UHGV virus genome: UHGV-0072520
Strand: one strand, 5' to 3'
DNA from: a virus
DNA: 12,477 nt
Shown: positions 1,336 to 12,477 of the stretch, piece after piece
Position numbering within the stretch: the first letter of the stretch is position 1
Layout: each line of letters opens with the position of its first letter
Translations under genes and position numbers: made by a program
The notes under the pieces: model-generated
Databases searched by the model: none
What the model was told of the DNA's origin: nothing
The model's input: the letters and a program-made list of their open reading frames with translations, nothing else

Positions 1336-2629
1336 TAACACACATATAATGATAATCATATATGCTTTAGTTATATGCATGCTTACATCAAATGTTTTTA
1401 TGATTAATACTAGTGATTTTTACAGATCGGTATTTCCTTTCATAGGTGAAATAAATACATTTGATGGAAATCTAACACTAAATTATGAATTAAAAAAAGA
1501 TTTTTTGAGTGTTTTCTCCTATGATTACATTAGCTCTTATAGTTACATCTTATATATTTATGCTTATATTATTTCTTTCTTTACAAATTATTTAGATTTG
1601 AGATTGCTATCAAGTATTCTTAAGATTATTTTTATAATAACATTATACTCATTATTTAGAAATATCACCAAGGAAAATGGCGCTAAATTTTTGGCGATAT
1701 TTTTCATAATCGCTCTCCCTATGCTATCAACCTCAAACCTAGCATTCTTCTCATCTTTTTATCAAGAGCAAATAGTAATCATAGCATTACCAATAGTCTC
1801 TTTATTTATAAGCGGCAATAATAAAAAAGATATACTCATTACTTTCATAGCTGCCACCCTCATAGCTTGCTCAAAGAGCCAGTTCTTTTACCTTCCGTTA
1901 ATAATAGCAATAGCTTATGGCATATTTAATCGAGATATGTTTAAGTTTAAAATTTTATTAACAGTTTTATCAATGTCGCTTTCTTTAATGTGCATTTGGG
2001 GTTCCTCTGGTGCGGCAGCATTTAATAAATACCATGCAAATTATTTTGGTATATATGAATATGCAAAAATCAATAATATTGAGATCGAACAAAACGTAGA
2101 CCAAAAATGCATTGGCGTAGATGCGTGGGGAAATAAATTTAATCTAGAACATGGAGCTATACAAACAACTTTAGGTGGCGATTGTTTTGGTAGAAATACT
2201 TCTGCTGGTTTCGTCGATGTAATTAGATGGGTCGCTAAAAACCCCAGCATTATTTATAATCTTCCAGTTGATGCCGGGATTAAAACACAATATACTGAAA
2301 ATTATTTCCATGTATTTAATGGAATAAAATTAATACAGGGGAATACAGGGGCATTGTCATACTTAACTGAAGTCAAGGATTATTTATTTAAAGATCTTAG
2401 GTTTGTTATTTTATTCATTACAATGTTGTTATCAATCATCTTCATTAGAAAGAAACTCTCAATTTTACTCTTTACCGTATGCTCGTTTGGGACATCACAG
2501 TTATACGTCTCTTTTTTTGGCGAGGGTTACAGAGATTTAGACAAACATCTTTTCGGGATGAATTTCGCATTCGACTTAACTATATTTATCGTGATGTGTC
2601 TTTTAGTTAGATTAAAATTCAAAAAATAA
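1325..2629 (+). CDS. Type-specific O-antigen glucosyltransferase (GtrC-type), polytopic membrane protein; serotype specificity undetermined
   Basis: 434-aa highly hydrophobic ORF immediately after gtrAB, the canonical position of the type-specific gtr gene. Strikingly AT-rich compared with flanking DNA. Start overlaps the gtrB stop by 11 nt; an alternative in-frame ATG lies at 1349. Confidence 0.72.
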
Positions 2630-2666: not shown

Positions 2667-4628
2667 TCACCAGTCTGCTAAAACTATCGCCCCACGCATA
2701 AATGCACGGTAAAAAGGAGATTCCCCTGCAGGGAAGCTGAAATGGAGAACTGGTGCTTCCCCAACAGCGTAATAATCTTCCGGTTTGAATCCAAACATAA
2801 ACGTTTGGCTTGAAGAAAGAGTCACACTTGCAATATCTTGATAGCGAATACCGTCTTTGCTTTTACCCATAAGAAAAAGTCCGTTTATAGGATTCCCGCC
2901 ATTAAGATTGGATATCTCAAGCCAAGCCCCTACGCCCTTACTGTAGCTACTGCAAAGACATAGAGATGCATCAGAAGTTTTAAAAGCAACTCCACTGACA
3001 TCGACTCCTTGCTGGGTGGTTTCATGGTCCCCATCACCAGAGCCACTTAATATCCTAGTTGGCCATGCATTCTTCGTAATTGTCTGGTCACTTGAGCTTG
3101 GATCCGCAGGCATAACATCCTTAAGCAATTCCTGTAGTGGCCAATGTTTACCACTGCCGGCTCCACCAAATAGATAGGTCTTTGTTTTTAGCTGTCTTGG
3201 ATAAGACTTGGATGCTAGTTTAGTAACTAACTCTTGAAGTATTCGATTAGTGCGTATCCTGTCAGTAATACCTGGGTCAGCTTCACCATCCCATACAAAT
3301 GCACCAAAATTCCCATTGCCCGCAGCGCCAAATATTTCAGCGCCTCCAACTACCTGATCAATATCACCACTTATATTGCTTCCACTAAATAGAAACGCAC
3401 CAACTACAGGGATAACATTAGGAATTTCAGTCATTTTGGAAATTACACCAAAATCTAATCTCATTTTCACAAGATCGGCGTTAATTCTGGTTTGTAAATC
3501 TCCTGTTGCAGCAGTTGAATATGAGTTAACTAAAGCCAGATCATAATTTTTTGAATACCATTGATTGAACGGTCCGCCAGGAGGAAGTTGGCACACCATA
3601 AGCAATGTTTTGTTTGTAACACTACGAAGAGTTTCAATCTTTGCATCCTGATCTGCAACACTGATCCCTCTAGCGCCTGGCTCGTCATATACTGCATATG
3701 CTACAACCGCAGGATGAGTGTCTATGGATTTAACAAAACTTGGCAGATCAGATATAGCAAGCGGGTCTTGTTCGGTTCCGATAGAAACTTTTAGACCTGC
3801 TGTTAAAGCATTATCTAATAACTTAAACTTGTCGCCTTCATCATCTACAGAACCACTAAACCCCAAATAATGGTGGATACTATTAAATCCTAATTGCTTT
3901 ATAAATAACAACTCAGCCAAGTCATAAGCAGAGCTAACGTAACAAATTTTCACTTTTGCATCGAAAGATACATCTACTTCTGAAGTCGCTAATATTGATC
4001 CAAGATTGTAGCGAGTCGTGTTAATCTTAAAATTACCGATTAATTTCTGCCCCTTAGATTTCAGCTTTTTTGTGATTTTATACTCTTTGTCTTTGATTCC
4101 TACAACATCCTTCCCAGTATCAAATGCAGCCTGAATGGCGTCTGACCAATCATCATCAACAACAAGATTTGCATAATCTTCGATGTAAGCATATACATCA
4201 CTACGCTTATTAAGGTTGTCTATATCAGTCTGCTTTGCGGCCCCATTTACTAAATCCACACCACCAGGTGCAGCAAGCTCCTGTCTTAACTGATCAGGAT
4301 CGTACTTCAGCACATTAGGAAAATAGAATTGCTGTGCACCATACGCATCATAACCAGCCATAGAATGGCCTTGCACGGTAACGAATTTGGCAATCTGTCC
4401 GTTATATACAGGATAACCAGCAGCGTTAATGATGATTGGTTGAGAAACAGGAACGTGAGAGCCGTCTTCGTTCTCTATATAAACCTGAATCTGGTTTTCA
4501 GGATTTACCGGGTCCGTGTCAATTTTACCGATATAAATTTTGCCATTGGCTACGGCTTTAAAAGAACGCGCCATAGTGAAGAGTTGCGATGGCATTGATA
4601 CGATCACATTGGCTGTAATGTCTGTCAT
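2667..4628 (-). CDS. Tailspike protein: P22-type N-terminal head-binding domain, divergent C-terminal receptor-binding/depolymerase domain
   Basis: 653-aa ORF. The first ~115 aa ([13 protein letters not shown] ... [38 protein letters not shown] ... [13 protein letters not shown] ... NVLKYDPDQ) closely resemble the conserved head-binding domain of P22/Sf6/HK620 tailspikes as I recall them. The remainder is not recognisably the P22 endorhamnosidase. RBS GGAG lies 8 nt upstream of the ATG on the - strand. Confidence 0.85.
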
Positions 4629-4761: not shown

Positions 4762-4792
4762 AAAAAAACCACCTGACGGTGGGTTAATTTTT
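4762..4792. terminator. Putative bidirectional intrinsic terminator
   Basis: Stem ccacc / ggtgg (4769-4773 and 4778-4782) with loop tgac, flanked by an A7 run upstream (4762-4768) and ttaattttt downstream (4784-4792), so either strand gets a U-rich tail. Confidence 0.45.
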
Positions 4793-4810
4793 GCATTTAC
4801 CTGGGCCATA

Positions 4811-4839
4811 TTGACTACTTATAAAATGAGATCAATATT
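4811..4839 (+). promoter_or_regulatory. Candidate sigma70 promoter for the small + strand gene
   Basis: TTGACT (4811-4816), 17-nt spacer, AATATT (4834-4839); the -35 matches consensus at 5 of 6 positions and the -10 at 4 of 6. Lies about 35 nt upstream of the ATG at 4876. By-eye match only. Confidence 0.3.
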
Positions 4840-4875: not shown

Positions 4876-5055
4876 ATGGCGAAAAAACCAGGTGAAAACA
4901 CAGGAAAAAACGGCGGAATATACCAAGAAGTTGGCCCACGCGGCGGTAAGAAAGACAATTTTGCCACCGTCAAGGACAACGAAAGGCTTCCACCAACAAC
5001 AAAGCCAGGTCATGGCTGGGTATTGGATAAGCGAACTCCAGACAGCAAAAAGTAA
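4876..5055 (+). CDS. Small YjzC-like protein (function unknown)
   Basis: 59-aa ORF MAKKPGENTGKNGGIYQEVGPRGG ... LPPTTKPGHGWVLDKRTP. The G-x-Y-x-E-V-G ... W ... KRTP pattern resembles the YjzC-like small-protein family as I recall it. GAGG RBS 5 nt upstream of the ATG at 4876 (the ORF track's upstream ATG at 4861 lacks an RBS). A terminator follows. Confidence 0.5.
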   Translation: MAKKPGENTGKNGGIYQEVGPRGGKKDNFATVKDNERLPPTTKPGHGWVLDKRTPDSKK

Positions 5056-5061
5056 TAATCA

Positions 5062-5084
5062 AGCCGGGTCACTCCGGCTTTTTG
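5062..5084 (+). terminator. Intrinsic terminator after the YjzC-like gene
   Basis: Stem agccgg / ccggct (5062-5067 and 5074-5079) with loop gtcact, followed by a T5 run. It overlaps the 3' end of the convergent - strand gene, so it may serve both. Confidence 0.55.
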
Positions 5085-5968: not shown

Positions 5969-7816
5969 TTATTGCTGTTCTGCTGTAATTTGGCTTGAAA
6001 GTATAGGGCGTATCGCATTTGCAGCATTATTTAGCGCTCTTTCATAGGCTGGTGTTCCTGCTTTGGTGTTTGCCAAACGTAAGAGAGCATTCCTTGCTGC
6101 TTTTGACTCATACAAGCGCATCATTGCACCGAAACCAGCCTCAAGCCCCATTGATACGCCAAGAGTCGCAGTTGCGCCAATCGTCCTTATCCTGTTGGCT
6201 TGCGATTGCCCCGTCTGAGTTACTACATTTGCGGTGTCTGACCTTGCTGTTTGCTGTAGAACTTCATGAAGAGAATCAAGCTCTTTCATGTGCTTTCCAG
6301 AAAAAATAGTGTTGTAAATTTCACCGCCTGACTGAGATTTCAGCTTATTAACTTCAGTGATGAACTTGGCTGGAGAGTCCCCGGCCTTTTCCGCTATTTT
6401 GCTGACGTAAGCTGCACGCATAGCATCTTTCCCCTTATCATCCAGTGCGCTCCAGATTCGTTTCACGTCAGATGGTTTTCTGCTTAATACAACGGTATTT
6501 ATAAGTTCAGGACTGGCTTCACTGCTTGCCTTGTTGAGCTTGTTGGCAATGTTTTTATTAAGCACCTTATTATAAACGTTTGCATAATCGGAATTTGCTT
6601 TAAGGTATTTTGCTGCGTCTGATGCACCGAGGTTTTTAGCAACTGCGTTACGAAGGTCTTTTGACATTGCATTCTCTACCATATTGGTAGCTGCTTTTGC
6701 CTGGTTGGGGAAGACCATAGCATCTCCCTGAACATTAGATCTAAATGCTGTTCTGTGCTGACGCAAGAGATCAAACGTAACATCCAAATCAGTTGCAGGG
6801 TTTGCTAATTCTTCACGTAGGTTACGCAAGGATGTAAGCAGGCTTTGATTGGCAGACGTCCCAAGCCGTTCCTGTCTTGCGATCGCTGTATTCAGAGCAT
6901 TCATGGTATTTGTTGTATCAACTGCGGCATTACCCATTTTATTGGTGACGTCATTGATAACAGCGCCAGCGGCATCCTTCCGTCCCCTTAACGTGGTGGT
7001 CAGAGATTTCACCACATCATCAGGGTTGTACTCACCAAAACGGTCAAAATAATTACTTACCAGTTTACTACGCGTTGCATATTGCTCCGCTCGCTTTGAT
7101 CCTGTCCCGAGCAAAGCCCCCTCGGCATCCTGAGTAAGGCCGCGAGTGAAAGCATTTTTCGGTGGGATGACATCAGATGTCATTGGCGTCACACCCATTG
7201 ATTCTGAGGTGGCAATTTTTTTCGCTACTTCTGGCGCGATATCGCCTTTTATAGCCGTTATTCCACGCCCTATTCCCTTTGCTGCTGCGGAAAGAACACC
7301 CTGAGCGGCAAGGTTAACTCCGGCATTTTTAGCTGCATTTTGTGCGAAATCGCCTTTCTGATTTGCGGCCTCTGCCAGTGAGCCAATAGCCATGCTTCCT
7401 GCCGTTCCAACTCCTGGAACTAAATACCCGCCAATTGTTTCTCCAGCTTGCGCATAAGGGTCTGTCGGTCGATCGACAGGGCGATAAACATCATCCAAAA
7501 CCTTGGGGCCACCAAGCCCCTGGCTGATTGCATTAATCAGACTTGCGCCACCCTGCAATACGTCAAATGGTATGTTTACCAGACCACGACCAGCCTGTTC
7601 TGCAATTTGCCCTGCACTTTGACCACCAGTGAGCCAATCGCCAGCTTGTTGCATCAATGATGGTTCTTCCCGTGTTGGTGCATTATTGGCCTGATTAACT
7701 GTTTGTTGCTGAACAGCCTGACCAGCAAAATACTCATCAATGGCGGTGCCAATATCTTCGGTGCTCGTACCATCAGGAAAGGTAAATGTCTTACCGTTTG
7801 CAGTTACTTTCATCAT
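5969..7816 (-). CDS. Ejection (DNA-transfer/injection) protein, P22 gp16-like
   Basis: 615-aa Ala/Gly/Gln-rich ORF without obvious enzymatic motifs, upstream of and co-oriented with the tailspike, matching the position and approximate size of P22 gene 16. Start overlaps the upstream stop (ATGA at 7813-7816). Assignment is by synteny and composition, not verified homology. Confidence 0.6.
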
Positions 7817-8805
7817 TCCACCGTAAATTGAATGCCTGATTTTGAGGTATATGATCCGGATTGACTCTGCTGCTGTTGGGTATTTGTCGGTTGTTGGTTA
7901 TTGCTCTGTTGTTGACTATTTGCAGCACTTGAAACCACCAAAGCATCATAAACGCGACCAGACTGACCACGTAATGAGTTATATTGGCCCTGCATTTTTC
8001 GCATTTTTGTTTCAGTAGCAGCCTTGGAATCACCAGGCTGAGGCAGGTACATTTTGGAATACTCCTGCATCTCTGGCAGAGTAATTGCTGCACCTGTTTC
8101 TGGGCGCAAAATTGCATACAAGGCGTCTCTCGCATTTACCATATATTGCTGCTCCGCTGGTGATAGGCTTAAATTTGCAATAGTCCCATCACCAAGAGAG
8201 CGATTTATTAATGCAACTCGCTTAGGGTCAATGCTTTTACTAAGCTGATTCATTGAGTCCATTGAATCTTTTAATCGCAAAGCAAATCCTGCCGCCTTCT
8301 TGGAACCCTCATTAGCCTTATCTATGATGCTTTGCGCTTGTGGCAAACTAATTGGTTTAATGCCATCACCAGATATAGGTTGGTTTAGTTTTCCGGCTTC
8401 CTCGCTGCCATCGGTGTAATACTTAGTTACCGAGCCATCAGGATTGGTTTCAACCTTAAGTAATTTCTTAGCATTGGGATTAATTCCCGCCGCTGCCGCA
8501 AATGCCGCTGCACCATCTGGATCCGCCTTTAACATTTGCGCGTACTGATTGTAATTCTGCATTGCGACTGTTGGTGCATATGCTGACGTTAACGCATTTG
8601 CTCGGCTAATATCCTGCCCTCTCGCCTGAAGTGCCTCGCCAGCCTGATTGCTGCGGATTGTCTCTGCCAGTCTGCCTCGGTCAATCTCACGACCAGCCAT
8701 CTTGTCCTGAACAGCAAACGCCTTTTCTGGTCCAAGCGCACCGAGAGACATAGTAGTCAGCATGTGTGATAGCTGCTCTGGATTCTGGATACCTGTCTGA
8801 ATCAT
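7813..8805 (-). CDS. Ejection protein, P22 gp20-like, apparently missing its 5' end
   Basis: 330-aa ORF from the first ATG, but the frame stays open upstream to 8919 with no start codon, which suggests the N-terminal coding part was deleted. Translationally coupled to the gp16-like gene. Assignment is by synteny. Confidence 0.5.
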
Positions 8806-8835
8806 CCAGTCAGCATTAGCACCAACGCGATTTAA

Positions 8836-9192
8836 CCTGTCCTTGTTGTCAGTAATGAATTTACTGTAGGCTTCCGGTCCCTGAGAAAGAGCGACGTTAC
8901 CGTAATAGTCCCCTGTCGGTTAGGGAAGCTGCGTGTTGAGCTGGAAGCAACAGAGAACAACCTCATTGATAGTGAATGCCATGTTGCTGAACTGGAAGAA
9001 GCACTACGCGACAAGCAGGCGTTACTTGAAGCCTCAGAAAAGCGCATAGCAGAACAAAGCTCGATTGTTACAGCCGCTGAAAAACTGGTTCGCTGTAAAG
9101 GCCGCTATCACAGTGAGCAAAACTATCGTGCGCTGGCTGCATTGTTTGGCGTAACAGTGCCGGATTTACCACCACTGCAAGCAGATGATTAA
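8836..9192 (+). pseudogene. 3' fragment of an early-region gene (coiled-coil C-terminus), no start codon
   Basis: Open frame 8836-9189 with no ATG/GTG/TTG start. It encodes ...KLRVELEATENNLIDSECHVAELEEALRDKQALLEASEKRIAEQ...LFGVTVPDLPPLQADD and ends 10 nt before the next gene with operon-like spacing (AAGGA RBS at 9191-9195). Confidence 0.35.
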
Positions 9193-9202
9193 GGACTAAC
9201 CT

Positions 9203-9775
9203 ATGACCACTATTACCAAAGAGCGACTACTGACAATCAAGCAGTGGCGCGAAACATACGGACCTGGTAGCAACGTTGTACTGCCAGCAGAAGAAGCGGA
9301 AGAACTGGCACGAATTGCTCTGGCATCGCTGGAAGCAGAACCTGTAAGCCAAACTTACAACTTGCCACAAACGCACTTTGAACAGGTTGCTGACCTTTAC
9401 GAAATGCAATTTGATGACGGACGCACTTGTGCCTTTCATACTGATGCACAAAAGGCTGCGCAATGGCTTCGGGCATGCGACGGAAACAGGGTTCAGGAAT
9501 ACGTGAAACTGGAGCGACTGCAGAACGCGCTATCGGGCAACTCTCCGGTAATTCCGGATAGTTGGATAAGCTGTAGTGAGCGAATGCCGGAAAAGAATCA
9601 GAACGTGCTTATTTCGGTGAATTTCGATAGCTCTCTGGTTGAACCGCTAATATGCTCCGCACGCTATACCGGAAGCACCTTTCGGCGCGGAGATGCAACG
9701 ATTAAGCCGGGTAATGGTATTGAGCAAGCAACTCACTGGATTCCGCTACCGGAACCGCCGCAGGAGGCGAAATGA
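9203..9775 (+). CDS. DUF551-like phage early protein
   Basis: 190-aa ORF whose C-terminus (WISCSERMPEKNQNVLI ... ATHWIPLPEPP) matches the DUF551 signature common in lambdoid/P22-like early regions, as I recall it. AAGGA RBS 7 nt upstream. Confidence 0.68.
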   Translation: MTTITKERLLTIKQWRETYGPGSNVVLPAEEAEELARIALASLEAEPVSQTYNLPQTHFEQVADLYEMQFDDGRTCAFHTDAQKAAQWLRACDGNRVQEYVKLERLQNALSGNSPVIPDSWISCSERMPEKNQNVLISVNFDSSLVEPLICSARYTGSTFRRGDATIKPGNGIEQATHWIPLPEPPQEAK

Positions 9776-11076: not shown

Positions 11077-11268
11077 ATGACCGATACCAGCCTGATTCCT
11101 GAGAAAGAAGTGATGAACAAGCTCGGTGTTTCATCACGTCAGACAATCTGGAACTATACCAAACGGCACGGATTTCCGAAGCCAGTCAGAACCCACCCCA
11201 AATCATACCTTCGTGAAGCTGTTGAGGGGTGGATTCTTAACGGTGGCGTTAATCAGAAATGCTCCTGA
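11077..11268 (+). CDS. AlpA-family phage transcriptional regulator / putative excisionase (HTH)
   Basis: 63-aa ORF MTDTSLIPEKEVMNKLGVSSRQTIWNYTKRHGFPKPV..., typical of AlpA/Xis-like small HTH proteins next to P4-type integrases. GGAG RBS at 11065-11068. Confidence 0.75.
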   Translation: MTDTSLIPEKEVMNKLGVSSRQTIWNYTKRHGFPKPVRTHPKSYLREAVEGWILNGGVNQKCS

Positions 11269-12427
11269 TGTGCCAGAACAATTTATCAGCGTGAAGCTCA
11301 TACGCTTTGCGCTGAGCCTCTATCCAGTCGTGTTTATTGTATACGGACATTATCCCGCCAAGTTCATGACCGAGCATTCGCTCAGTAACATGAGGCTCGA
11401 CATTCATCTCGGACAGACGTGTAACAAGCGTTCTTCTGAAATCATGTGTTCGCCAGTAACCTATATCCATCCCTCCCCTTATTCTATTTACGAATCGGTT
11501 GGCTGCAGCGATGCTGATCGGTTTGTTTATGTCTTCTCCAGGGAAAAGAACATCATTGTACGTTGTCATGGCCTTTTCGAGGAAAGGCTTAATTTGTTCG
11601 AAGATTGGACGGCGGATAACATTACCCATCTTGCTATGCTCTTTCGGTACGGTCCATACGTTTTCCAGCAGGTCAAATTCTGTCTTTTTTGCCAGCCTAA
11701 GCTCTGAGAGCCTCGCCCCCCACATCATAAGCATCTGATGAAGTAGCTTATTTGACGTAGACGCACGGCTTCTTTCAATAGCAAGCCAAATCTTAGCCAG
11801 TTCGTGATACGACAGTACCCGATCCCCTACCTCAGCGCGGGAGCCGAAGTCCCTTGGTTGGATGCTCATAATTGCGCAACTATCTATCAACTGACGCCGC
11901 ATGCACCAACTTATTGCTGACCTTAGTTGACTTAGCACCTGCCTTGCTCGGCGTGGATTATCTCTTTCTTCTTCGGTAAGCAGGTCAACCCATTGCTTAA
12001 CCGTGATAGAAGATGCCGGACGATTAGGAAAGGCGTCATGCATGCGCTTCATAACCGTTGATCGGTAAAGTGCCTGGGTCTTTTCTCTGAGAGTTGTAGA
12101 GACGTAGTTGTCGAACCAGTAGTCGAGACACTGGGCGACCGTCATGGAGTTCTCCACCTTCTCTTCAAAATAAGTGCGTGGATCCGTTCCTGAGAAATAG
12201 AGCTTTCGCAAGTCAGCAGTGATCTGTCTGGCATCCTTCAAAGACAGGGATGGGTATCGACCAAGCCCAAGTCGATTAGGCTTGCCATGCCAGCGATAGC
12301 GGTACTGGAACTGGATGACCCCCTTCGGTGAAATTCGTACGCTGAGGCCATCGGCATCAGCCACTTCTTGTGGGCCCGAATATGGTTTACCATAAATAGT
12401 ACGCAGTTTTGTGTCGCTTATAGCCAT
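11249..12427 (-). CDS. int: Tyrosine site-specific integrase, P4-type (DUF4102-like N-terminal arm-binding domain)
   Basis: 392 aa. N-terminus (SDTKLR ... DGLSVRISPKG ... YRYRWHGK ... LGLGRYPSLSLKDAR) fits the P4-family integrase pattern. C-terminal catalytic residues are visible: HDFRRT (H-x-x-R) and the tyrosine in MSVYNKHDW. Confidence 0.92.
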   Translation of the reverse strand: MAISDTKLRTIYGKPYSGPQEVADADGLSVRISPKGVIQFQYRYRWHGKPNRLGLGRYPSLSLKDARQITADLRKLYFSGTDPRTYFEEKVENSMTVAQCLDYWFDNYVSTTLREKTQALYRSTVMKRMHDAFPNRPASSITVKQWVDLLTEEERDNPRRARQVLSQLRSAISWCMRRQLIDSCAIMSIQPRDFGSRAEVGDRVLSYHELAKIWLAIERSRASTSNKLLHQMLMMWGARLSELRLAKKTEFDLLENVWTVPKEHSKMGNVIRRPIFEQIKPFLEKAMTTYNDVLFPGEDINKPISIAAANRFVNRIRGGMDIGYWRTHDFRRTLVTRLSEMNVEPHVTERMLGHELGGIMSVYNKHDWIEAQRKAYELHADKLFWHIRSISD

Positions 12428-12435
12428 AAATAATA

Positions 12436-12477
12436 TTTGGTACGCTCAGAAATAATGGTTTGGTACACATCTGGTAC
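12436..12477. repeat. Three direct copies of TGGTAC just outside the integrase 5' end (possible arm-type sites)
   Basis: TTTGGTAC at 12436-12443 and 12459-12466, and TGGTAC at 12472-12477, all in direct orientation at the window edge. Confidence 0.25.

What the first reader, a model, noticed from the sequence alone, without database searches (positions are those of the whole stretch)
12436..12477. Triple TGGTAC direct repeat just beyond the integrase start
Three direct TGGTAC copies (two as TTTGGTAC) within 42 bp sit immediately outside the int 5' end, where P4-type prophages carry attachment-site arms. They could be arm-type integrase or Xis binding sites or part of the int promoter. The window ends here, so the pattern may continue.
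Basis: seen in the sequence. Interest (0 to 1): 0.35.

Follow-up and report, generated by a model that had tools for sequence, protein, structure and literature searches.

The report
Integrase arm-binding repeats beside int start
The three TGGTAC repeats are very probably the docking sites that a phage integrase uses to assemble its cut-and-paste complex (and probably to throttle its own gene), a textbook kind of element whose sequence for this widespread sbcB-targeting integrase family I did not find described in the literature I could search.

Summary
In detail: TGGTAC sits at 12438-43, 12461-66 and 12472-77, the first two as TTTGGTAC. Within the window alone this is not beyond chance, since 27% of shuffles give some hexamer triple.

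Outside evidence makes it real:
- **Both arms.** In intact attP of phages carrying the same integrase (Sf101, HK140), the motif TGGTACRC occurs five times: three beside the int start and two about 54 bp beyond the 13-bp core. It occurs nowhere else.
- **Conserved layout.** In 32 loci whose integrases are 52-100% identical, exactly one GTAC trio exists per locus. It always lies 11-21 nt (mostly 13-16) from the int start, with gaps of 22-24 and 11 bp, while the spacers vary freely.
- **Matching protein domain.** The integrase has a P4-type arm-binding N-domain that matches solved arm-binding domains.
- **Matching precedent.** P4's annotated arm repeats have the same 3+2 layout.

Best reading: these are arm-type integrase sites of the int-proximal att arm. 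They lie over the int leader and probable promoter, so autorepression as in KplE1/P4 is likely but inferred.

The likely Xis sites are a different repeat family beyond the window.

This is a new member of a known kind, of modest interest.

The parts
12436..12445 (+). Arm-type site 1 (TTTGGTACGC), 9-18 nt upstream of the int ATG
   Evidence: Sequence read. GTAC lies at offset 11-21 (mostly 13-16) from the int start codon in all 23 aligned relatives.
12459..12468 (+). Arm-type site 2 (TTTGGTACAC), 23 bp from site 1
   Evidence: Sequence read. The gap of 22-24 bp to site 1 is conserved in every related locus while the spacer sequence is not (0-0.5 bits per column).
12470..12477 (+). Arm-type site 3 (TCTGGTAC, completed as ...ACA beyond the window end), 11 bp from site 2. 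It abuts a conserved CAATAT block, a candidate -10 on the int strand.
   Evidence: Searches give the sequence. The 11-bp gap is invariant in all 32 matching loci.
12428..12477 (-). Start of the int 5' leader and promoter-proximal part of the int-proximal att arm. The arm continues about 170 bp beyond the window to the core TTTCACGATTACG.
   Evidence: Relatives L001, L002 and L003; core sequence as published for Sf101 and phage 2851.
11249..12427 (-). Tyrosine integrase, 392 aa, with an N-terminal P4-type arm-binding domain (residues 4-85) and a catalytic domain (204-366)
   Evidence: Pfam PF13356 at 8e-18 and PF00589 at 6e-17. Residues 1-77 match the solved arm-binding domains 3JTZ/3RMP at E=1.8e-12.
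11077..11268 (+). AlpA/Vis-like excisionase (RDF), 63 aa, convergent with int and overlapping it by 20 nt
   Evidence: PHROG 66 'excisionase and transcriptional regulator' at 1.9e-8. Annotated as AlpA family in Sf101 and HK140. tblastn found it in 23 of 26 related loci searched, next to the int 3' end in nearly all.

Best explanation
The three TGGTAC copies are the three arm-type binding sites of the int-proximal arm of this prophage's attachment site. The family consensus is about TTnKGTACRCA.

Proposed mechanism: the N-terminal arm-binding domain of the integrase encoded next door docks on these sites and on two more copies on the other arm. The catalytic and core-binding domains hold the 13-bp core TTTCACGATTACG inside the 5' end of sbcB. 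DNA bending between arm and core, for which an IHF-like site sits mid-arm, closes the intasome for integration and, with the AlpA-like excisionase, for excision.

A second role is likely. int is transcribed away from the core, so its promoter and leader must lie in this arm. Integrase bound to the trio, especially site 3 next to the candidate -10, would then repress its own gene, as shown for KplE1 IntS and reported for P4 Int.

Shown here: the sites' existence, their 3+2 distribution on both arms of intact attP, their positional conservation, and the domain content of the integrase. Inferred: binding itself, the promoter position and autoregulation.
For: 1. **Both arms.** In intact attP of free phages with a 99%-identical Int, the repeat finder gives one 5-copy family with spacings 23, 11, 238 and 12 bp. 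Three copies sit next to the int ATG and two lie 54 bp past the core. In the prophage L001 the two groups sit at the two junctions, and TGGTACRC occurs nowhere else in 29.5 kb.
2. **Phylogenetic footprint.** The pattern GTAC-N18-20-GTAC-N7-GTAC matches exactly once in each of the 32 loci with a related int, always directly upstream of its start. These are L001-L003 and 29 loci from 17 other genera and three further phages, with Int 52-100% identical. It does not match in the 9 other loci held (two carry a more distant int, 40-48%) or anywhere else in the matching loci. Site columns are near-invariant while spacer columns carry 0-0.5 bits.
3. **Motif follows the integrase, not the target.** The same trio is present whether the element sits in sbcB, in the 5' half of argW, or in a Klebsiella DJ-1/PfpI-type gene. 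The Int N-domain stays 59-76% identical while the core-binding domain falls to 37-45% in the argW group. The most diverged N-domain (44%, Photobacterium) goes with a changed motif, TTGGACGCA x3 at gaps of 21 and 12.
4. **The protein has the matching domain.** Pfam Arm-DNA-bind_3 scores 8e-18 and the solved arm-binding domains of HPI/CP4-like integrases match at E=1.8e-12.
5. **Same layout as P4.** P4's GenBank record annotates 'attP arm sequence repeat' three times at the int start and twice 53 bp past the core, 12 bp apart.
6. **Regulatory precedent.** In KplE1 the intS promoter overlaps the attL arm sites, and IntS and TorI repress it (PMC2951348).
Against: There is no binding or recombination data for this integrase family, and I found none in the searchable literature. 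The window itself holds only one arm, and its triple is not significant on its own. The distal pair could be checked only in two integrase lineages (sbcB type and argW type) because the other prophage ends were out of reach.

The promoter part is weak. A consensus sigma-70 scan found no promoter in the Sf101 attP region. The TGnTATTGT extended -10 next to site 3 is my reading of a conserved block, with a poor -35. In HK140 a same-strand gene lies across attP, so read-through could also feed int in the phage state.
Confidence: 0.82

Rival explanations
1. The repeats are binding sites for the AlpA/Vis-like excisionase (RDF) rather than for the integrase.
For: An RDF gene lies next to int. In KplE1 and P4 the RDF also binds within the int-proximal arm and represses int.
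Against: The motif lies on both arms of attP, whereas RDF sites in the known systems cluster on one arm (established knowledge of lambda; KplE1).

E. coli and Tatumella share the TTGGTACA trio although their RDFs are only 47% identical. A separate 10-bp-phased repeat family just beyond the trio changes with the RDF instead: GGACA/GAACA becomes GGATA/GGAAA.
Confidence: 0.06
2. The repeats are elements of the int promoter or leader, read by RNA polymerase, a host regulator or the ribosome, and have no role in recombination.
For: They lie between the only plausible promoter position and the int ATG. No Shine-Dalgarno sequence is present, and a conserved A/T-rich stretch and CAATAT block flank them.
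Against: Two further copies lie on the far side of the core, where no int promoter can be. The leader RNA shows no unusual fold, with z=0.06. The promoter scan found nothing. The layout copies P4's annotated arm repeats.
Confidence: 0.06
3. The repeats are a chance recurrence of a hexamer.
For: 27% of shuffled windows contain some hexamer triple within 42 bp, and the window has another one, CTTATA at 1536-1568.
Against: There is exactly one trio per related locus, at the same place and with the same spacing, across 18 genera (E. coli/Shigella plus 17 others) and no match elsewhere in the fetched loci. All five TGGTACRC copies in 29.5 kb lie at the att arms, with 0 of 100 shuffles reaching five.
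Confidence: 0.01
4. The repeats are sites for a host architectural or regulatory protein that acts on sbcB expression.
For: In lysogens the arm lies upstream of the phage-supplied sbcB start.
Against: The trio is retained unchanged in relatives that sit next to argW or a Klebsiella gene instead of sbcB. It is absent from the empty K-12 sbcB site.
Confidence: 0.03

Closest known systems
Satellite phage P4 attP arm repeats with the P4 integrase
   Same: Both integrases have the Arm-DNA-bind_3 N-domain (P4 int is annotated as 'integrase arm-type DNA-binding domain-containing protein'). In both, int is transcribed away from the core. Both have three repeats within about 40-50 bp of the int start, then a core, then two repeats 12 bp apart starting 53-54 bp past the core. 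Both have an AlpA/Vis-type RDF.
   Different: The integrases are only 25% identical. The motif is ATGCCCCCAAT in P4 and TTKGTACRCA here. In P4 one proximal repeat is inverted and overlaps the ATG, whereas here all three are direct. The proximal sites lie 112 bp from the core in P4 and 163 bp here. P4 targets the 3' end of a leucine tRNA gene (from my own knowledge, not checked here); this family targets the 5' ends of genes. The element here is P22-like, not a satellite.
KplE1 (CPS-53) IntS/TorI module, with the attL-PintS overlap (Panis et al. 2010, PMC2951348)
   Same: int points away from the core, so its promoter lies in the att arm. Arm-type repeats sit directly next to the int ATG (GGGTAAAA repeats), with further copies on the other arm. 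The RDF gene is transcribed separately. Negative autoregulation by Int and the RDF was shown experimentally.
   Different: IntS is only 22% identical and the motif differs. KplE1 uses the 3' end of argW. Regulation here is inferred, not measured.
Lambda attP arm-type sites P1, P2 and P'1-P'3
   Same: A heterobivalent integrase, five arm sites split 2+3 across the core, and accessory bending and excision factors between arm and core (established knowledge; summarised in PMC2951348).
   Different: Lambda Int has a different N-domain family. Lambda int is transcribed towards attP from PL/PI, so its arm sites do not overlap its promoter.
attP core of phages 2851 and Sf101 (integration in sbcB)
   Same: This is the same integrase (98-99% identical) and the same 13-bp core, CGTAATCGTGAAA. 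Integration in the 5' end of sbcB was shown by junction PCR (PMC4159516).
   Different: That work defines only the core. The arm repeats, their 3+2 layout and their conservation are not mentioned there (0 occurrences of 'arm-type').

Membership tests
Arm-type binding sites of a heterobivalent tyrosine integrase (lambda/P4/KplE1 type attP) | The adjacent integrase carries an N-terminal arm-binding domain. | tested here: met
   PF13356 matches residues 4-85 at E=8e-18. Residues 1-77 match PDB 3JTZ/3RMP at 1.8e-12.
Arm-type binding sites of a heterobivalent tyrosine integrase (lambda/P4/KplE1 type attP) | A repeated motif, different from the core, is present on both arms flanking the crossover core in attP. 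| tested here: met
   Met in relatives, not in the window, which holds one arm only. Sf101 and HK140 (Int 99% identical) have 3+2 copies around the core. phi346 (56% identical) also has 3+2. The prophage L001 has 3 and 2 at its two junctions.
Arm-type binding sites of a heterobivalent tyrosine integrase (lambda/P4/KplE1 type attP) | Sites are conserved in position among diverged relatives and follow the integrase rather than the target locus. | tested here: met
   There is one trio per locus in all 32 loci with a related int, and none elsewhere. Spacers vary freely. The trio is the same at sbcB, argW and Klebsiella targets. The motif is altered where the N-domain is most diverged.
Arm-type binding sites of a heterobivalent tyrosine integrase (lambda/P4/KplE1 type attP) | The Int N-domain binds the sites directly, and the sites are required for recombination. 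| not testable with these tools
   This needs EMSA or footprinting and attP mutant integration/excision assays. No published data were found.
Autoregulated integrase promoter overlapping the att arm (KplE1 intS / P4 int type) | int is oriented away from the core, so its promoter must lie between the core and the ATG. | tested here: met
   int is on the minus strand with its start at 12427, facing the arm. The RDF is convergent at the int 3' end. The core lies about 215 bp upstream of the ATG in relatives.
Autoregulated integrase promoter overlapping the att arm (KplE1 intS / P4 int type) | An identifiable promoter overlaps the arm sites. | tested here: inconclusive
   The consensus scan found 0 sigma-70 sites. 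The only pointer is a conserved CAATAT block abutting site 3, which reads TGnTATTGT on the int strand (my reading).
Autoregulated integrase promoter overlapping the att arm (KplE1 intS / P4 int type) | Int (and the RDF) supplied in trans repress int transcription. | not testable with these tools
   This needs reporter fusions or RT-qPCR, as done in PMC2951348.
   The window encodes GtrA, GtrB, a P22-type tailspike and P22-type DNA-transfer proteins. Only the integrase type and the RDF type are P4-like.
   There is no tRNA in the window. In near-identical prophages the next gene is sbcB, with the core in its codons for FHDY (PMC4159516).
Excisionase (RDF) binding sites | Phased repeats confined to one arm that co-vary with the RDF. 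| tested here: not met
   The TGGTAC motif is on both arms and is unchanged between lineages with different RDFs. A different repeat family shows the RDF-like behaviour.

The most novel reading that the evidence does not exclude
The int-proximal arm could be a two-way control region. The phage replaces the promoter and first 15 codons of host sbcB (ExoI) with its own, and these lie between the TGGTAC trio and the core, in a stretch packed with putative RDF and IHF sites. Integrase and excisionase occupancy of the arm could therefore set host ExoI expression as well as int expression, putting a host recombination nuclease under prophage control.

A milder and better-supported version concerns retargeting. 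This integrase family keeps one fixed 'arm code' (a GTAC trio at 23/11-bp spacing plus a distal pair) while its core-binding domain retargets to the 5' ends of different genes: sbcB, the 5' half of argW, and a Klebsiella DJ-1/PfpI-type gene.
Probability: 0.1. Interest if true: 0.5.

Novelty: new member of a known kind. Interest (0 to 1): 0.3.

Why it matters
This integrase module is common. Part of the int-RDF-arm query matched in 2350 of 5426 complete E. coli genomes, and at least 80% of it in 490. It is carried by Stx2c/Stx1a/Stx2a-converting phages, by the Shigella serotype-converting phage Sf101, and by HK140 and mEp234.

Published work that I could search defines only its 13-bp core. Knowing the full attP has three practical uses:
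- It allows a minimal functional attP to be built for this integrase. The full site spans about 295 bp, with a 3+2 arm-site layout, an IHF-like site and candidate RDF sites.
- It helps predict which prophage remnants can still excise.
- It offers a natural example of one arm-site code combined with several core specificities, which is useful for integrase retargeting.

Mechanistically it is an expected variation on P4 and KplE1, not a new principle.

Tried and rejected
- **tRNA/tmRNA search.** ARAGORN found none in the window, and relatives show sbcB instead.
- **In-window statistics.** TGGTAC is not enriched overall (5 copies against 3.5 expected), and the triple is not significant after look-elsewhere correction. 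The case rests on comparative data.
- **Consensus promoter scan of the Sf101 attP.** It returned no sigma-70 hit, so the promoter assignment stays an inference.
- **RNA structure in the int leader.** The z-score was 0.06, so this was rejected.
- **KplE1 homology.** I tested whether the family is simply IntS. IntS is only 22% identical with a different motif, so KplE1 is an analogue, not the same family.
- **Third independent distal arm.** I fetched the far end of Klebsiella phage ST11-OXA48phi15.1, but the record ends in tail genes with no second att.
- **Whole-window search.** No complete E. coli genome holds more than 50% of the window in one place, so the window's own flank could not be recovered.
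- **Literature searches.** Searches for the motif strings and for arm-type sites of phage 2851/Sf101 found nothing relevant.
- **Longer repeat unit.** The apparent AAATAAT(N)TTTGGTAC unit in the window is not conserved in relatives. Only a loose A-run precedes site 2, so it is not part of the site.

Full report
**1. The observation**

The sequence at the window's end reads CAT(int start, minus strand)-AAATAATA-TTTGGTACGC-TCAGAAATAATGG-TTTGGTACAC-A-TCTGGTAC. The int ORF is 11249-12427 on the minus strand, so the repeats occupy the 50 nt directly upstream of its ATG.

Taken alone the triple is not statistically convincing:
- The hexamer occurs 5 times in the window on both strands, against 3.5 expected.
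- 27% of dinucleotide-preserving shuffles contain some non-trivial hexamer three times within 42 bp.
- The real window holds a second such triple, CTTATA at 1536-1568.

**2. What the element is**

The window has no tRNA. Its genes are gtrA, gtrB and a gtrC-like gene, a P22-type tailspike, a P22 gp16-like DNA-transfer protein, a 5'-truncated gp20-like protein, ea-region genes, a 63-aa AlpA/Vis-like excisionase and the integrase. This is a defective P22-like prophage, not a P4-like satellite.

The integrase has a P4-type Arm-DNA-bind_3 domain (residues 4-85, E=8e-18) and a catalytic domain. Its first 77 residues align from residue 1 with the solved arm-type binding domains of HPI/CP4-like integrases (3JTZ/3RMP, E=1.8e-12; 3JU0, 1.3e-8). 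That alignment also confirms the start codon.

**3. What lies beyond the window**

The last 1.5 kb of the window is 99.7% identical to a prophage in E. coli 160-11H1. There the third copy completes to TGGTACAC and no further copy follows on that arm. About 130 bp further on comes a phage-borne start for sbcB (MTDTDKQPTFLFHDY...), then the sequence TTTCACGATTAC, and then the host sbcB gene.

The other prophage junction, next to dacD, carries the displaced host sbcB start (MMNDGKQQSTFLFHDY, identical to the empty K-12 site). It is followed by the same TTTCACGATTAC and, about 55 bp further, by two more copies: AATTTGGTACACAATTTGGTACGC. In this 29.5-kb locus TGGTACRC occurs five times, all in these two arms, against 1.08 expected and 0 of 100 shuffles reaching five.

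**4. Intact attP**

The same int module (98-99% identical protein) is present in free phages Sf101, HK140 and mEp234 and in Stx phages 2851 and 1717. In Sf101 and HK140 the two arms are joined:

| Feature (Sf101, L002 coordinates) | Position |
|---|---|
| int ATG | 4779-4781 |
| Three proximal sites | 4792-4833 |
| Gap to core | 163 bp |
| Core TTTCACGATTACG | 4997-5009 |
| Gap to distal pair | 54 bp |
| Two distal sites, 12 bp apart | 5064-5083 |

The repeat finder recovers one five-copy family with spacings 23, 11, 238 and 12 bp. In 7.3 kb of Sf101 the expectation is 0.26 copies. The distal arm differs at many positions between Sf101 and HK140, yet both copies of the motif are kept. The Sf101 paper defines only the 13-bp core (identical to that of phage 2851) and shows integration in the 5' end of sbcB; it does not mention arm-type sites (PMC4159516).

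**5. Conservation across genera**

A scan of one genome per species returned 27 loci (26 with the full-length gene) whose integrases are 40-74% identical, from 19 other genera including Buttiauxella, Erwinia, Chimaeribacter, Pantoea, Serratia, Rosenbergiella, Tatumella, Yersinia, Rahnella, Orbus, Gilliamella, Xenorhabdus, Proteus and Photobacterium. Phage records added three more, at 54-61%.

Every locus with an Int at least 52% identical has three direct repeats with GTAC at about 14, 37 and 48 nt from the start codon, with gaps of 22-24 and 11 bp. The pattern GTAC-N18-20-GTAC-N7-GTAC matches exactly once in each of these 32 loci, always at that place. It does not match in the 9 other loci held (two carry a more distant int, 40-48%) or anywhere else in the matching loci.

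In the anchored alignment the spacer columns carry 0-0.5 bits while the site columns are near-invariant. The pooled consensus is TTn(T/G)GTAC(A/G)CA. Because I selected trios by their GTAC, the 2.0 bits on GTAC are partly by construction. The uniqueness result is the unbiased statement.

**6. The motif follows the integrase N-domain**

The trio is the same whether the element adjoins sbcB, the 5' half of tRNA-Arg(CCU) (phi346, 733R5, Xenorhabdus, Proteus, Erwinia dacicola) or a Klebsiella DJ-1/PfpI-type gene. Across these the N-domain stays 59-76% identical, whereas the core-binding domain drops to 37-45% in the argW group. That is what one expects if arm specificity is kept while core specificity changes.

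The one lineage with a strongly diverged N-domain (Photobacterium, 44%) has a changed motif, TTGGACGCA x3 at gaps of 21 and 12. In phi346 (56% identical, intact attP) the distal arm again carries two sites 12 bp apart, about 58 bp past the core.

**7. Comparison with known systems**

*P4.* The GenBank record annotates 'attP arm sequence repeat' at 3915-3926 (overlapping the int ATG, inverted), 3942-3953 and 3954-3965; the core at 4078-4097; and two adjacent repeats at 4151-4174, starting 53 bp past the core. That is the same 3+2 layout and the same distal geometry, but the motif is different (ATGCCCCCAAT) and the integrase only 25% identical.

*KplE1.* IntS is 22% identical. It has GGGTAAAA repeats directly at its ATG and TTTACCC repeats on the other arm. 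Panis et al. showed that the intS promoter overlaps these attL sites and is repressed by IntS and TorI, and they predicted the same for integrase genes with this orientation (PMC2951348).

**8. Mechanism**

*Shown:* the sites, their two-arm distribution, their conservation and the presence of an arm-binding domain.

*Inferred, with high confidence:* the Int N-domain binds them to bridge arms and core in the intasome.

*Inferred, with moderate confidence:* autorepression. int faces away from the core and the RDF is convergent with it, so the int promoter must lie in this arm. A conserved block, CAATAT-CACATGGAC, abuts site 3. On the int strand it reads TGnTATTGT, an extended -10-like element, which would place site 3 at about +1 and sites 2 and 1 in the leader. 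However, the consensus scan found no promoter and the -35 is poor. The leader RNA has no unusual fold, with z=0.06.

**9. Rivals**

- **RDF sites.** This is disfavoured. The motif lies on both arms and is shared by E. coli and Tatumella, whose RDFs are 47% identical. A different, roughly 10-bp-phased repeat family just past the trio changes with the RDF: GGACA/GAACA in most lineages, GGATA/GGAAA in Tatumella and R. nectarea.
- **Pure promoter or leader element.** This does not explain the distal pair.
- **Host-factor site for sbcB.** This does not explain retention at argW and the Klebsiella targets, nor absence from the empty site.
- **Chance.** Excluded.

**10. Verdict**

The P4-prophage and tRNA framing is wrong in detail. 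The finding is a new, apparently undescribed member of a well-known kind of element. No relevant literature turned up for the motif or for arm sites of this integrase, but subscription journals are largely outside the library searched.

Noticed in passing
L001 15480-15660 and 3295-3342; L002 4834-5009 (just beyond window end 12477): The phage carries its own sbcB translation start (MTDTDKQPTFLFHDY) and upstream leader between the trio and the core. Lysogens therefore keep an intact hybrid ExoI, while the host promoter and first 16 codons are stranded at the other junction.
   Followed up: partly
L002 4840-4990 and the equivalent stretch of L005-L038 (beyond the window end): A second repeat family starts 16 bp after site 3 and is often spaced exactly 10 bp apart. 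It reads GGACA/GAACA in most lineages and GGATA/GGAAA in Tatumella and Rosenbergiella nectarea. It changes with the AlpA-like RDF's helix-turn-helix region, not with the trio, so these are candidate excisionase sites.
   Followed up: partly
L002 about 4922-4934 and the equivalent offset in 17 of 22 loci: An IHF-like site (WATCARNNNNTTR with at most 1 mismatch) lies at a conserved offset mid-arm, between the trio and the core. The offset is about 140-144 nt from the int ATG on one strand, or about 116-129 nt on the other. No chance expectation was computed.
   Followed up: partly
L002 5027-5049 (+), just past the core: A terminator-like hairpin with a T-run lies here. In the prophage it ends up behind the displaced host sbcB promoter and could insulate the prophage from it.
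   Followed up: no
L020, L021, L022, L036, L038; L037: Relatives at 52-56% identity carry the 5' half of tRNA-Arg(CCU) and insert in the 5' part of argW, unlike the usual 3'-end tRNA targeting. A Klebsiella phage integrase (61%) sits at the 5' end of a DJ-1/PfpI-type gene with a core resembling the sbcB core (GATTACGAAAC).
   Followed up: partly
window 5969-8805 (-) and 8805-9203: The prophage is defective. A P22 gp20-like ejection protein is truncated at its 5' end (it matches profile positions 162-509) and abuts the ea region. Head, lysis, replication and immunity genes are absent from the window.
   Followed up: partly
window 1536-1568: CTTATA occurs three times within 33 bp, inside the gtrC-like ORF. 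It is the only other hexamer triple in the window and is probably chance.
   Followed up: no
window 12428-12437 (-): There is no Shine-Dalgarno sequence between site 1 and the int ATG. A conserved A/T-rich ATAATA stretch takes its place in most relatives, which suggests weak or unusual translation initiation of int.
   Followed up: no
window 11249-11268: int and the AlpA-like RDF gene are convergent and overlap by 20 nt at their 3' ends. The same close, convergent placement was seen in nearly all related loci where the RDF was found. Transcriptional interference or antisense control between them is possible.
   Followed up: no
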